A stretch of 64,000 nt of DNA, taken from NCBI RefSeq assembly GCF_048403405.1, contig NZ_CP183129.1. One strand, written 5' to 3'. The stretch is from Escherichia coli (GTDB lineage: Bacteria > Pseudomonadota > Gammaproteobacteria > Enterobacterales > Enterobacteriaceae). Position 1 is the first letter of the stretch; each line of letters begins with the position of its first letter. The notes under the pieces are model-generated. The model was not told where the DNA came from. It was given only the letters and a program-made list of their open reading frames with translations, and ran no database searches. The translations under genes were made by a program, and so were the position numbers. Shown here piece by piece: positions 24,144 to 26,600 of the stretch.

Positions 24144-26600
24144 ATGAGCACTGATAAAGAAGAAATTGCACTATATTACGAAGCCAAAAATGACAAAATC
24201 AGAAAACGTCTTGGAATTAAAGGCGGTTTTTACTGGCGCACAGCAAAAAAATTATCGGTTGCAATATCACGCGGTGTTGTCGCAATGGACGATGCCGGAT
24301 TTGACAAAGAGGATTTTAAAAAACCTGTTCGCGTCCATTTACCCGTTGTGAATGACCTTCCTCCGGAAGGCGTGTTTGATACCGAATTCTGCAACCGATA
24401 CGAAAAGGGCGGTGAAGATGGTATCACAATGGTACTTATCGCGCCCTCGCCCTCTGTTCAGGATAAACCAGCCAGCACTGACAATACCAACGTCAACGGC
24501 GAAGACATGGCTGAGATTGAGGAGAACATGCTCCTGCCGGTTTCAGGTCAGATTCTGCCTGTTCGATGGCTGGCACAGCACGGCAGCGAAAAACCGATCA
24601 CACACGTTTCGCGGGACGAACTGCGCACATTACATAACGCACAGGATGAAAAACTTCCCGCCGTTACCGCGCTGGCCATCTCAAATAAAGCAGCGCAACT
24701 CGAACCGCTGGAAATTCGCGATCTCCACAAACTGGTTCGTGACACGGACAAAGTTTTCCCTAATCCTGGTAATTCAGACCTGGGACTGATGACTGCTTTT
24801 TTCGAAGCATACCTGGGCGCTGACTACACCGATCGCGGTCTGCTGACAAAAGAGTGGATGAAAGGAAATCGTGTTTCACGCATCACCCGCACGGCTTCCG
24901 GTGCTAATGCCGGTGGAGGGAACAAAACCGATCGCAATCCGAATTTAGTACACACCTTCGATACGCTGGATGTGGAGATTGCAGCGGCCACACTTCCGAT
25001 GGATTTTAATATTTATGAAATTCCGGGCAGCGTTTATCGTCGCGCAAAAGAAGTCGTCCGGAAGAAAGAAAGTCCGTTCAAAGAATGGTCCGCAGCACTT
25101 CGCGCAATCCCGGGTATCCTGGATTATTCCCGCGCCGCTATTTTTGCACTTATCCGAAGCGCACACCCTGAATTTTATCACTACCCGGGACGCCTTCAGG
25201 GGTATATCAACGCCTATTTGACGGAAACTGATCACGAGAACCCTACCGAGGAAACTCTCGCTGCTGCACGACATACACCGGAAAAAGATATCCTGGAAGA
25301 AGTTAACCGCGAACTGGCTGCTGAACGCGAAACAGAAGAAGAAAAAAATAATGAGGAAAAATCACAACCGTCTGACGCAATGGCAGATGAACAGGCAACG
25401 ACTGAAGCAATGGAGCCGAATACAACTGAACATCGCCAGGACACGCAATCGCTGGATACTCAGGCACAGATAGATCCGGTTAATCAGGTAAAAGTTACCG
25501 CTGACGAAGTAAACAAAATTATGCAGGCAGCCAATATCAGCCAGCCTGACGCCGATAAGTTGCTTGCGGCCTCTCGCGGAGAATTTGTTGCAGGGATTAG
25601 CGACCCGAATGATCCGAAATGGGTCAAGGGGATGGAAACCCGCGATTCTGTGAACCAGAACCAGCAAGAAACGGAACAGAACGGCCAGAAAGCGGAACAA
25701 AACAGCCCAAATGCGTTACAAAACGAGCCAGAAACGAAACAACCTGAACCAGTAGTGCAACAGGAACCGGAAAAGATCTGCACCGCCTGCGGTCAGACCG
25801 GCGGCGGCAACTGCCCTGATTGTGGCGCGGTGATGGGCGACGCAACATACCAGGAAACATTCAATGAAGAGAATCAGGTTGAAGTTCAGGAAAATGATCC
25901 GGAGGAAATGGAAGGCACTGAACATCCACACAAGGAGAACCCTGGCGGCAATCAGCATCACGATAGCGATAGTGAAACTGGCGAGGCGACAGATCACTCA
26001 GTTAAGGTGAACGGTCATCATAAAGGCACATCCACCAGCGGGACGTGTGACCATCTAATGATCGACCTTGAAACCATGGGAAAAAATCCAGATGCCCCGA
26101 TTATCTCAATAGGTGCAATATTTTTCGATCCGCAAACCGGAGATATGGGACCGGAATTTAGTAAGACTATCGATCTGGAAACTGCTGGCGGAGTCATTGA
26201 TCGGGACACCATTAAATGGTGGCTTAAGCAATCACGCGAAGCGCAATCTGCCATTATGACCGATGAAATCCCGTTAGATGATGCACTGTTACAATTGCGG
26301 GAATTTATCGACGAAAACTCCGGCGAATTTTTTGTTCAGGTCTGGGGAAATGGAGCCAACTTCGACAACACGATTTTGCGCCGTTCATACGAACGGCAGG
26401 GGATCCCCTGCCCGTGGCGTTACTACAACGATCGCGATGTACGCACAATCGTTGAGCTGGGGAAAGCCATAGACTTCGATGCCAGAACGGCTATTCCATT
26501 CGAAGGTGAGCGCCATAATGCACTTGATGACGCCCGTTACCAGGCAAAATACGTTTCAGTTATCTGGCAAAAACTGATCCCGAGTCAGGCTGATTTTTAA
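24144..26600 (+). CDS. Large phage exonuclease: N-terminal domain, acidic/Gln-rich linker, C4 zinc ribbon, C-terminal DEDDh 3'-5' exonuclease domain
   Basis: 818 aa; MIDLETMG (Exo I), [12 protein letters not shown] (Exo II), [13 protein letters not shown] (Exo III); [16 protein letters not shown] ribbon; same position as the 'exodeoxyribonuclease VIII' genes of lambdoid prophages. Confidence 0.8.
   Translation: [818 protein letters not shown]

What the first reader, a model, noticed from the sequence alone, without database searches (positions are those of the whole stretch)
24144..26600. 818-aa exonuclease with DEDDh domain, acidic Gln/Glu-rich linker and C4 zinc ribbon
The C-terminal 180 aa carries all three DnaQ-like exonuclease motifs, which differs from the PD-(D/E)XK nuclease fold of RecE that such genes are often named after. 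The middle of the protein is low-complexity (EEEKNNEEK…[16 protein letters not shown]…) followed by [16 protein letters not shown]. The N-terminal 350 aa has no motif I recognise and may be a recombination- or host-interaction module.
Basis: partly seen in the sequence, partly recalled or inferred. Interest (0 to 1): 0.35.

Follow-up and report, generated by a model that had tools for sequence, protein, structure and literature searches.

The report
RecE-like protein with swapped exonuclease
This prophage gene encodes a relative of the recombination enzyme RecE whose usual DNA-cutting domain has been replaced by an unrelated exonuclease that should digest DNA from the opposite end; this kind of exonuclease domain is very common in E. 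coli, but the protein has never been tested.

Summary
Window 24144-26600 (+) is a real, conserved 818-aa gene. It is the last gene of a lambdoid prophage's early-left (dicF-dicB-ydfD) operon, just before xis-int.

- **RecE-like part.** Residues 58-617 are 56% identical to residues 50-588 of Rac RecE. This stretch includes the acidic linker and the C4 zinc ribbon.
- **Swapped nuclease.** After the junction ETGEA (aa 611-615), RecE's 5'->3' PD-(D/E)XK nuclease is replaced by a DEDDh domain (D641, E643, D741, H791, D796). Its only solved relative detectable by sequence is the phage T4 DNA exonuclease DexA.
- **N-terminal module.** The first 400 aa are predicted to fold confidently (pLDDT 91), with no solved or viral structural relative. 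In homologues, N-terminal-region sequence is joined to alternative C-termini: RecE nuclease, DEDDh, a nuclease-free 58-aa tail, or a coiled coil.
- **Partner rule.** RecE-nuclease forms are followed by recT (3/3). DEDDh forms run straight into xis/int (9/9).
- **Prevalence.** The DEDDh-domain DNA occurs in 4047 of 5426 complete E. coli genomes; the RecE nuclease domain occurs in 1730.

The most likely activity is a tethered 3'->5' DNA exonuclease that is not a RecET-type recombinase. Its biological role is unknown. This is a new variant of a known kind, of moderate interest.

The parts
24144..26600 (+). Complete gene, 818 aa (91 kDa, pI 4.7), including the stop codon
   Evidence: ORF list. PGAP CDS 'exonuclease' WP_001542183.1 has identical coordinates in a 100% identical copy. 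Mass and pI.
24144..25343 (+). N-terminal globular module, aa 1-400 (the RecE N-terminal module). It contains the Pfam Exonuc_VIII match at aa 55-189. Sub-domain B, aa ~230-390, recurs in YdfE-type proteins.
25344..25499 (+). Acidic disordered linker 1, aa 401-452 (EEEKNNEEK...)
   Evidence: pLDDT <50 in the full-length model; net charge -7.
25500..25631 (+). Conserved island, aa 453-496: two short helices plus LLAASRGEF (aa 473-481) and DPNDPKW (aa 487-493)
   Evidence: Helices 453-462 and 470-477; pLDDT 81-87 for aa 471-490. Near-identical in RecE. The DPxDPxW motif is present in 27 of 85 long family representatives of all C-terminal classes.
25632..25769 (+). Q/E/N/P-rich low-complexity linker 2, aa 497-542
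   Evidence: pLDDT ~30; composition.
25779..25826 (+). C4 zinc-ribbon motif [16 protein letters not shown], aa 546-561 (C546, C549, C557, C560)
   Evidence: Sequence. Conserved in Rac RecE as CNACGQTGGDNCPDCG. Short beta elements with pLDDT 65-71. Present in only 6 of 85 long family representatives.
25836..26036 (+). Acidic, His-rich disordered linker 3, aa 565-631. It contains the module junction ETGEA (aa 611-615, nt 25974-25988).
   Evidence: pLDDT <50; net charge -14. RecE homology ends at aa 617. The nuclease-free variants diverge right after ETGEA. DNA identity to recE and to the tail variant collapses after ~aa 610.
26037..26597 (+). DEDDh (DnaQ-like, DexA/Rv2179c-class) 3'-5' exonuclease domain, aa 632-818. 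Catalytic residues D641, E643, D741, H791, D796.
   Evidence: Pfam PF16473, 227 bits. Profile search versus PDB finds only T4 DexA 8KEL/8KEN, E=7e-16. Foldseek top hits are DexA (E=1.4e-8; TM-score normalised to the target 0.65-0.71), then RNase T and Orn. pLDDT mostly >90. Catalytic residue mapping.
26032..26039 (-). Chi octamer GCTGGTGG lying at the linker/DEDDh module junction (possibly coincidental)
   Evidence: Pattern search: 21 Chi in the window against 1.84 expected by chance.
23678..24066 (+). Upstream operon partners: dicB (23678-23866) and a ydfD-like DUF1482 gene (23863-24066)
   Evidence: PGAP annotation of an identical locus. The same dicB-ydfD-exo-xis-int cassette occurs in ompW-site prophages of O104:H4, O157:H7 and another strain.
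26662..28018 (+). Downstream excisionase (26662-26931) and integrase (26900-28018). No annealase gene lies between the exonuclease and xis.
   Evidence: No RecT/Bet/Erf is annotated anywhere in the prophage.

Best explanation
The gene encodes a domain-swapped member of the RecE lineage. SHOWN: aa 1-617 are the RecE N-terminal region. This comprises a 400-aa, confidently folded module of unknown function and a ~230-aa acidic, mostly disordered tether. The tether carries one conserved helical/DPNDPKW island and a C4 zinc ribbon. At the junction ETGEA, RecE's 5'->3' PD-(D/E)XK nuclease is replaced by a DexA-class DEDDh domain with a complete catalytic set. The gene closes the early-left dicF-dicB-ydfD operon directly upstream of xis-int, in a prophage with no annotated annealase or Gam. 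INFERRED: the protein is a Mg2+-dependent 3'->5' DNA exonuclease, probably dimeric like its nearest structural matches. It would be made only when the DicA-like repressor is lifted. Its shared N-module would hold it at the same, still unknown, partner or site as RecE. Because it has the opposite polarity and no annealase partner, it cannot act as a RecET-type single-strand-annealing recombinase. The most likely role is trimming or degrading 3' ends of linear DNA during lytic development. One option is blunting 3' tails so that host RecBCD can load, in a phage that has no recombination module and a host-like density of Chi sites. This biological role is the weakest step.
For: - **RecE-like part.** BLASTP versus K-12 RecE gives 56% identity over aa 58-617 = RecE 50-588, and nothing beyond. 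NCBIfam exoVIII matches only model positions 1-602 of 877.
- **Exonuclease domain.** Pfam PF16473 scores 227 bits. DEDDh residues are intact and kept in 12 of 13 fused cluster representatives. A PDB profile search finds only T4 DexA, a DNA exonuclease (7e-16), and DexA is also the Foldseek top hit.
- **Beads-on-a-string model.** pLDDT 91 for aa 1-400. In the full-length model, pTM is 0.35 with disordered 401-452, 497-542 and 565-631.
- **Modularity.** N-terminal-region sequence is found with PD-(D/E)XK, DEDDh, a 58-aa tail or a coiled coil; the coiled-coil forms share only sub-domain B. A nuclease-free form is a separate gene upstream of Gam-RecT-YqaJ.
- **Partner rule.** PD-(D/E)XK forms are followed by RecT in 3/3 cases. 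DEDDh forms are followed by xis/int in 9/9 cases.
- **Prophage context.** No SSAP or Gam is annotated in the prophage. There are ten Chi sites in the 28 kb of prophage sequence within the window.
- **Literature.** DnaQ-type nuclease genes near int, and lambdoid phages without a recombination module but with many Chi sites, are described in PMC12315714.
Against: - No biochemistry exists for this protein or for any RecE-N::DEDDh fusion.
- The Pfam family is named after an exoribonuclease, and RNase T and oligoribonuclease match the fold almost as well as DexA (TM-score normalised to the target ~0.7). An RNA or nanoRNA substrate is therefore not excluded.
- One representative, P0133, has E->K and D->A at catalytic positions, so a non-catalytic function of the protein may matter.
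- A 3'->5' exonuclease would normally antagonise RecA and annealing pathways (PMC12315714), so the RecBCD-feeding idea is only one of several possible roles.
- The function of the N-module is unknown, so 'tethering' is inferred from architecture alone.
- The promoter and terminator scan gave nothing above chance, so operon membership rests on gene order and spacing.
Confidence: 0.55

Rival explanations
1. It is an HREX-type exclusion nuclease. Like the E. coli DexA homologue EcD, it would selectively digest cytosine-modified (5hmC) DNA of incoming T-even phages and protect the lysogen.
For: PMC12153337 reports that a plasmid-borne E. coli DexA homologue (EcD) cleaves T4 DNA and protects against T4. 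The domain here is of the same class, with DexA as the only PDB relative. The neighbour dicB belongs to an operon that I recall, from my own knowledge, as linked to phage exclusion. The domain is extremely widespread in E. coli, in 4047 of 5426 genomes.
Against: The residues that paper ties to 5hmC recognition are not conserved: W152 is Y761 here, and D169 lies in a DexA-only insertion with no equivalent. D90 is retained, whereas EcD has Ala at that position. There is no PADLOC match. The gene sits at the end of a repressor-controlled early-left operon, so it is probably silent in the lysogen. EcD could not be located, so its closeness to this domain is unknown.
Confidence: 0.2
2. It is an exoribonuclease or nanoRNase (Rv2179c/Orn/RNase T-like). 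It would act on RNA 3' ends, short oligoribonucleotides or linear nucleotide signals, not on DNA.
For: The Pfam family PF16473 is described as a 3'-5' exoribonuclease domain, and PGAP sometimes names homologues '3'-5' exoribonuclease'. RNase T and Orn/REXO2 align structurally with TM-score (normalised to the target) 0.65-0.75.
Against: By sequence, the only solved relative is the DNA exonuclease DexA; no solved exoribonuclease of any kind passed E<=0.01 with the family profile. Stand-alone homologues sit between SSB/Erf and Abc2 in a DNA recombination module. The fusion partner is the N-terminal region of a DNA exonuclease.
Confidence: 0.12
3. It is an ordinary RecE (exodeoxyribonuclease VIII) orthologue that resects 5' strands for annealing, as some database names suggest.
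For: It is named 'exodeoxyribonuclease VIII' in a phage record and 'RecE family exodeoxyribonuclease' for many homologues. PF06630 is present, and aa 58-617 are 56% identical to RecE.
Against: There is no similarity to RecE residues 589-866, the crystallised nuclease domain. NCBIfam gives 909 bits against a cut-off of 1269, with the match ending at model position 602. There is no recT downstream. The C-terminus is a different fold with opposite expected polarity.
Confidence: 0.02
4. The nuclease is secondary, and the conserved function lies in the N-module plus tether. The protein would then act mainly as a scaffold or decoy, for example competing with RecE-type proteins of co-resident or incoming lambdoid phages for a shared partner.
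For: Nuclease-free versions of the N-module are conserved and are separate genes. PMC12315714 calls nuclease-less RecE relatives 'RecE-2'. P0133 carries a probably dead DEDDh domain. The N-module is confidently folded.
Against: The DEDDh domain is the best-conserved part of the fused proteins: 53-99% identity versus 26-93% for the N-module (mostly 26-65%). The catalytic residues are kept in 12 of 13 representatives.
Confidence: 0.1

Closest known systems
Rac prophage RecE (exonuclease VIII, E. coli K-12 b1350)
   Same: aa 58-617 are 56% identical to RecE 50-588, including the [16 protein letters not shown] island and the CxxC-x7-CxxC ribbon. Both occupy the same slot, late in the early-left operon after small kil-type genes and before xis-int. 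The N-terminal domain is of unknown function in both (PMC11611040).
   Different: The C-terminal PD-(D/E)XK 5'->3' nuclease (PDB 3H4R) is absent and replaced by a DEDDh domain. No recT follows. The protein fails the NCBIfam exoVIII cut-off. At the DNA level the gene is a mosaic: 71-92% identity over aa 121-270, ~40% over aa 271-390, and 86-90% over aa 541-600.
Phage T4 DexA (exonuclease A; PDB 8KEL/8KEN)
   Same: It is a DEDDh 3'-5' exonuclease with all five catalytic residues aligned. It is the only solved structure found by sequence profile (7e-16) and the best Foldseek match.
   Different: Only 32% identity in the domain alignment. The domain here lacks three DexA insertions. W152 is Tyr here and D169 has no counterpart. 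DexA is a free-standing 227-aa protein of a virulent phage, whereas this domain is the C-terminus of an 818-aa prophage protein.
Stand-alone DnaQ-like exonucleases of lambdoid phages (e.g. mEpX2 XSB41207.1, mEp460); E. coli 'EcD' of the HREX proposal may be of this type
   Same: 58-60% identical to the domain here. They lie in the same early-left region near int. They are noted as a nuclease type of lambdoid Rec modules in PMC12315714.
   Different: They are free-standing proteins of ~182-190 aa. In mEpX2 the gene lies inside an Erf-SSB-Exo-Abc2 recombination module, whereas the fused form here has no annealase, SSB or anti-RecBCD neighbour.
Nuclease-free RecE-N proteins (e.g. P0103, 676 aa); the 'RecE-2' proteins of PMC12315714 may be related
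   Same: 78-83% identical over the shared region, including the linker and zinc ribbon. They diverge at the same ETGEA junction.
   Different: They end in a 58-aa hydrophobic tail (QQLTIAALQGLCANP-type motif) instead of a nuclease. They are followed by Gam, a RecT-family annealase and a YqaJ/lambda-Exo-type nuclease.
M. tuberculosis Rv2179c (namesake of Pfam PF16473)
   Same: Same Pfam family.
   Different: By my own recollection, not checked here, it is described as an exoribonuclease of a cellular organism with a solved structure; no such chain appeared in the family-profile search of PDB sequences at E<=0.01. The prophage domain is therefore closer to DexA than to any other solved protein.

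Membership tests
RecE / exodeoxyribonuclease VIII (NCBIfam NF007259, equivalog) | Whole-protein score at or above the curated cut-off (1269 bits) | tested here: not met
   908.7 bits; the match covers aa 1-620 to model positions 1-602 of 877 only.
RecE / exodeoxyribonuclease VIII | C-terminal PD-(D/E)XK 5'->3' nuclease domain (RecE ~600-866, PDB 3H4R) | tested here: not met
   BLASTP shows no similarity beyond RecE residue 588. There is no PDDEXK-type Pfam hit. 3H4R was not matched by the protein.
RecE / exodeoxyribonuclease VIII | Adjacent recT annealase gene (two-component RecET) | tested here: not met
   The next genes are xis and int. No annealase is annotated in the whole prophage. The same holds in 8 other DEDDh-type loci, while 3 of 3 PD-(D/E)XK-type loci have recT.
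RecE / exodeoxyribonuclease VIII | N-terminal Exonuc_VIII region (Pfam PF06630) | tested here: met
   PF06630 matches aa 55-189, E=1.9e-27, 96.9 bits against a cut-off of 25. 56% identity to RecE 50-588.
DEDDh (DnaQ-like) 3'-5' exonucleases, Rv2179c-like/DexA class (Pfam PF16473) | Domain match above the gathering score | tested here: met
   227.3 bits against a cut-off of 27; aa 637-808 cover profile positions 2-177 of 177.
DEDDh (DnaQ-like) 3'-5' exonucleases | Catalytic residues: DxE (Exo I), D (Exo II), Hx4D (Exo III) | tested here: met
   D641, E643, D741, H791 and D796 align with DexA D7, E9, D119, H186 and D191.
DEDDh (DnaQ-like) 3'-5' exonucleases | RNase H-like DnaQ fold | tested here: met
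   The AF2 domain has pLDDT mostly >90. Foldseek matches DexA, RNase T and Orn with probability 1.00 and TM-score (normalised to the target) 0.64-0.75.
DEDDh (DnaQ-like) 3'-5' exonucleases | Measured metal-dependent 3'->5' exonuclease activity and substrate (DNA versus RNA) | not testable with these tools
   This needs an enzyme assay. DNA is favoured only because the nearest characterised relative is DexA.
HREX (5hmC-recognising DexA/EcD exonucleases, PMC12153337) | Trp equivalent to DexA W152 and an acidic residue equivalent to D169 (5hmC recognition) | tested here: not met
   W152 aligns with Y761. D169 lies in a DexA-only insertion, and the aligned residue is Ala. The alignment around D169 is unreliable.
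HREX (defensive, dimer-locked form) | Loss of the D90/S87 tetramer contact (EcD has Ala at D90) | tested here: inconclusive
   The S87 equivalent is P710 (contact lost) but the D90 equivalent is D713 (retained). Oligomeric state cannot be derived here.
C4 zinc ribbon | Two CxxC knuckles on a beta-hairpin pair, conserved among relatives | tested here: inconclusive
   CxxC-x7-CxxC lies at aa 546-560 and is conserved in RecE. Short beta elements have pLDDT 65-71. Only 6 of 85 long family representatives have it. Metal binding was not tested.

The most novel reading that the evidence does not exclude
The conserved unit of the 'RecE family' may not be the nuclease. It may instead be the ~400-aa N-module, which has no solved structural relative, together with its acidic tether. 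On this reading the N-module is an adaptor that brings interchangeable effectors to one cellular target. The effectors seen are a 5'->3' PD-(D/E)XK nuclease, a 3'->5' DEDDh nuclease, a nuclease-free CANP-motif tail, a coiled coil and even RecT. The DEDDh domain is more than twice as common in E. coli genomes as the RecE nuclease domain. The DEDDh version would then be a weapon in phage-phage or phage-host conflict. It could destroy the 3' tails that rival Red/RecET systems need, or digest incoming DNA, rather than act as a recombination enzyme.
Probability: 0.2. Interest if true: 0.65.

Novelty: new variant of a known kind. Interest (0 to 1): 0.4.

Why it matters
RecE is a workhorse of recombineering, yet two thirds of the protein (the N-terminal region) still has no assigned function. 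This gene shows that the N-terminal region is a self-contained, confidently folding module. Lambdoid phages combine it with nucleases of opposite polarity, or with no nuclease at all.

The polarity tracks the presence of an annealase. RecE-nuclease forms have recT downstream (3/3 loci examined), and DEDDh forms do not (9/9).

The DEDDh domain is present in about 75% of complete E. coli genomes, often in several copies and including O157:H7 and O104:H4 prophages. It is therefore one of the commonest untested prophage enzyme domains in the species.

Two results would follow from finding the N-module's partner and the exonuclease's substrate. The first is an explanation of why full-length RecE outperforms its nuclease core in linear-linear recombination. 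The second is an account of what Chi-rich lambdoid phages without a recombination module do at DNA ends. Neither would overturn current understanding, so the interest is moderate.

Tried and rejected
- **K-12 Qin ydfE as a truncated orthologue.** I expected this from memory. BLASTP shows no similarity to this protein. YdfE instead matches an alternative N-terminal domain in family members that share only sub-domain B with this protein.
- **SSB-tail mimicry.** The E. coli nuclease-free variants end in DDEYMPNF or DDEHIPDF, which resembles the SSB tail. I dropped the idea because the tip is not conserved in divergent members; only the QQLTIAALQGLCANP core is.
- **Locating EcD.** I tried to find EcD (HAK9828821.1) to measure its identity to this domain. 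It was not among the listed members of nine E. coli clusters.
- **PADLOC.** No defence-system model matched.
- **Promoter and terminator scan of 21000-28200.** Counts were at chance level, so there is no evidence for a private promoter or terminator.
- **Internal start at M639.** The DNA upstream of this ATG, which would give a free DEDDh domain, shows no convincing Shine-Dalgarno sequence. Many 177-183-aa 'stand-alone' E. coli entries that begin at this Met are probably ORF calls in disrupted fusion genes; a 606-aa member shares a 90% cluster with them.
- **Literature searches.** Three searches were spoiled by prefix matching of 'RecE' to 'receptor' or 'recent', or by a term shorter than three characters.
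- **Close-homologue searches.** The word-index searches were saturated by near-identical E. coli fragments. The 50%-cluster library was what gave useful diversity.
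Full report
**Observation**

The ORF at 24144-26600 (+) exists as described: ATG start, 818 aa. PGAP calls the same CDS ('exonuclease' or '3'-5' exonuclease') in many E. coli chromosomes that carry a 100% identical copy. The three DEDDh motifs are D641-x-E643, D741 and H791-x4-D796. The four cysteines of [16 protein letters not shown] are C546, C549, C557 and C560. The segment between aa 401 and 631 has net charge -30 and long E/Q/N/T-rich runs. The gene is not a chance ORF. Megablast finds it at >=80% coverage in 1272 of 5426 complete E. coli genomes, and parts of it in 4744.

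**Domain content**

- Pfam gives PF06630 Exonuc_VIII at aa 55-189 (1.9e-27) and PF16473 Rv2179c-like at aa 637-808 (1.3e-67).
- The NCBIfam equivalog for exodeoxyribonuclease VIII matches aa 1-620 to model positions 1-602 of 877. It scores 909 bits against a cut-off of 1269.
- BLASTP against K-12 Rac RecE gives 56% identity from aa 58 to 617 (RecE 50-588) and nothing for the rest. This stretch includes the motif [23 protein letters not shown] and the zinc ribbon (CNACGQTGGDNCPDCG in RecE).

What is new relative to RecE is everything after ETGEA (aa 611-615).

**The exonuclease domain**

- phmmer against PDB sequences finds only T4 DexA (8KEL/8KEN, 1.6e-6).
- A profile of 31 close homologues raises this to 7e-16 and still finds nothing else at E<=0.01.
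- Foldseek with the full-length model ranks DexA first (1.4e-8; TM-score normalised to the target 0.65-0.71). RNase T and oligoribonuclease/REXO2 follow.
- All five catalytic residues align with DexA D7, E9, D119, H186 and D191.
- They are kept in 12 of 13 fused cluster representatives. The exception, P0133, has K for the Glu and A for the motif-II Asp.

A 2025 paper (PMC12153337) solved the DexA structure. It also reported that an E. coli homologue, EcD, digests T4 DNA and protects cells ('HREX'). The residues it links to 5hmC recognition are not conserved here. W152 corresponds to Y761, and D169 lies in a DexA-specific insertion. D90, which is Ala in EcD, is Asp here. I could not locate the EcD sequence.

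**The N-terminal region**

AlphaFold2 with a 50-sequence alignment gives mean pLDDT 91.3 for aa 1-400, with only aa 102-111 disordered. No structural relative was found:
- Foldseek against BFVD: nothing at E<=1e-3.
- A family profile against PDB sequences: only the RecE nuclease domain, contributed by full-length rows of the alignment.

The full-length model has pLDDT 75.5 and pTM 0.35. Its ordered parts are aa 1-400, two short helices at 453-477 (pLDDT 81-87 for aa 471-490), the ribbon at 543-564 (pLDDT 65-71) and the DEDDh domain at 632-818. Segments 401-452, 497-542 and 565-631 are disordered. This is a beads-on-a-string protein with no predicted fixed contact between the modules. A 2023 review states that the RecE N-terminal domain has unknown function. 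It also notes that full-length RecE improves linear-linear recombination (PMC11611040).

**Family and modularity**

An exhaustive HMMER search of 1.84 billion cluster representatives with aa 1-400 finds only 223 proteins at E<=1e-3, so the family is narrow. I classified the 85 representatives of 450 aa or more with local BLASTP and Pfam. N-terminal-region sequence is joined to these alternative C-termini:
- RecE-type PD-(D/E)XK/DUF3799 nucleases.
- The DEDDh domain (13 clusters, 53-99% identical to the domain here).
- A 58-aa hydrophobic tail with a conserved QQLTIAALQGLCANP-type motif.
- A coiled-coil, Ea22-like end; these forms share only sub-domain B with this protein.
- In one case, RecT.

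The E. coli tail variants (for example P0103, 676 aa) are 78-83% identical to this protein up to ETGEA and then diverge. DNA identity profiles show a mosaic gene whose similarity to both recE and the tail variant collapses after about aa 610. Sub-domain B (aa ~230-390) also occurs behind a different N-terminal domain, the YdfE type. K-12 YdfE itself is not similar to this protein.

**Genomic context**

The window up to ~28040 is a lambda-like prophage inserted between potB and potC. Reading rightwards on the + strand, the gene order is:
1. A DicA-like repressor (21130-21537).
2. A DUF1391 gene and a hypothetical gene.
3. DicF sRNA.
4. A dicB fragment.
5. An isrK/C4/Rha cassette.
6. dicB.
7. 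A ydfD-like gene.
8. This gene.
9. xis and int.

No RecT, Bet, Erf, Gam or Abc2 is annotated anywhere in the prophage. The same dicB-ydfD-exo-xis-int cassette occurs in ompW-site prophages of O104:H4 C227-11, O157:H7 E32511 and a commensal strain. Divergent DEDDh fusions from metagenomes and other genomes are also followed directly by xis/int.

The other C-terminal classes have different neighbours:
- PD-(D/E)XK forms are followed by recT in Rac, P0146 and P0136.
- The nuclease-free tail form precedes Gam, a RecT-family annealase and a YqaJ nuclease.
- Free-standing DEDDh homologues (58-60% identical) sit inside an Erf-SSB-Exo-Abc2 module in phage mEpX2.

The sample is small but consistent: 9/9 DEDDh forms lack an adjacent annealase and 3/3 PD-(D/E)XK forms have one. 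The 5'->3' nuclease comes with an annealase, and the fused 3'->5' nuclease does not.

**Prevalence**

DNA of the DEDDh domain (561 nt) is found at >=80% coverage in 4047 of 5426 complete E. coli genomes. There are 8098 places in all, and up to 7 per genome. DNA of the K-12 RecE nuclease domain is found in 1730 genomes. Among phage records, 773 carry a related domain but only 7 cover >=80% of the whole protein. The best of these (vB_EcoS-640R1, 87.9%) is a prophage-derived record that still carries potC and potD.

**What is already known**

Zheng et al. (Genome Res 2025, PMC12315714) report three relevant points:
- Sporadic DnaQ-type genes lie near int, outside recognisable Rec modules.
- 'RecE-2' proteins lack a nuclease domain, and their roles are unknown.

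They also describe lambdoid phages that have no Rec module but many Chi sites and are helped by RecBCD. The prophage part of this window has 10 Chi octamers in 28 kb. The whole window has 21, against 1.84 expected by chance. I found no paper that describes the RecE-N::DEDDh fusion or tests it. The library searched is not exhaustive.

**Interpretation**

Shown:
- The architecture.
- The swap point.
- The intact catalytic set.
- The absence of an annealase partner.
- The autonomy and modular reuse of the N-module.
- The prevalence.

Inferred from the nearest characterised relative and from DEDDh chemistry:
- The protein is a Mg2+-dependent 3'->5' exonuclease acting on DNA.
- It is tethered through a flexible acidic linker to a module that RecE uses for the same, unknown, purpose.

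The biological role is inferred more weakly. With opposite polarity and no annealase, the protein cannot do RecET-type strand annealing. It may process 3' ends during lytic growth, possibly for host RecBCD in a Chi-rich phage that lacks a Rec module. Exclusion of modified-DNA phages (HREX), RNA substrates and a mainly scaffolding role remain open rivals. None can be settled without experiments.

**Verdict**

It is a new variant of known kinds: the RecE lineage and the DexA-class DEDDh exonucleases. It is widespread, untested and of moderate interest (0.4).

Noticed in passing
window 22578-22629 (+): DicF small RNA (Rfam RF00039, 61 bits against a gathering score of 48), upstream of dicB. This confirms that the gene under study closes a dicBF-type operon.
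   Followed up: partly
window 22699-23667 (+): isrK (22864-22940) and C4 antisense RNA (22965-23052) lie inside the 5' part of the ORF annotated as a Rha-family regulator (22813-23667). This resembles a P1/P7-style c4-ant arrangement, so the real Rha start is probably an internal Met near aa 99 (MATIPTL...). A dicB 5' fragment (22699-22782) lies to the left and an intact dicB (23678-23866) to the right. That suggests the cassette was inserted into the operon with duplication of the dicB start.
   Followed up: no
window 1-28040 and 26032-26039 (-): There are 21 Chi octamers in the window against 1.84 expected by chance. Ten are in the prophage part, 8 of them on the - strand. This is a host-like density in a lambdoid prophage with no Rec module. 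One Chi sits at the linker/DEDDh junction of the gene, where homologues switch C-terminal modules.
   Followed up: partly
P0133 (L008:5001-7259): A divergent RecE-N::DEDDh fusion has Lys in place of the catalytic Glu (MVDLKTMG) and Ala in place of the motif-II Asp (GNGYSFANV). The exonuclease domain is probably dead, yet it is retained in the same operon position.
   Followed up: partly
P0103 / L011:5001-7031 and homologues: Nuclease-free family members end in a 58-aa hydrophobic tail with a motif (L/F)T(Y/W)(R/K)QQLT(I/L)AA(L/I)QG(L/M)CANP...(D/E)(D/E)(I/L)PxMA. The tail is conserved at 34-94% identity and has no Pfam family. The gene overlaps the start of a Gam gene and precedes RecT and YqaJ genes.
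   Followed up: partly
P0126, P0105, P0333, P0315, P0350: Several rearranged forms exist. P0126 is RecE-N fused directly to a RecT domain. P0105 lacks the middle region and the zinc ribbon. P0333, P0315 and P0350 are YdfE-N fused to a partial DEDDh domain without motif I. These are probably deletion products, and they show how recombination-prone this locus is.
   Followed up: no
L013:5079-5999 (K-12 ydfE) and P0189 / L022: K-12 YdfE (a pseudogene cut by IS2) is not similar to this protein. It matches an alternative N-terminal domain (Pfam YdfE_N/YdfE_C) found in family members that share only sub-domain B with this protein. One such 741-aa protein sits in the same slot, followed by a Sipho_Gp157 gene and int.
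   Followed up: partly
window 19279-21537: The immunity and replication region is of the Rac/Qin type: a DicA-like repressor (21130-21537, +), a Cro/YdaS-like gene (20826-21053, -), a YdaT-family gene (20291-20842, -) and a DnaT-like/O-type replication gene (19279-20394, -).
   Followed up: no
ON470612.1 (L002): The 'Escherichia phage vB_EcoS-640R1, partial genome' record carries host genes (potC, potD, ymfA, ycfZ, cobB, nagK, lolE) next to int. It is therefore prophage-plus-chromosome sequence rather than a packaged phage genome.
   Followed up: no
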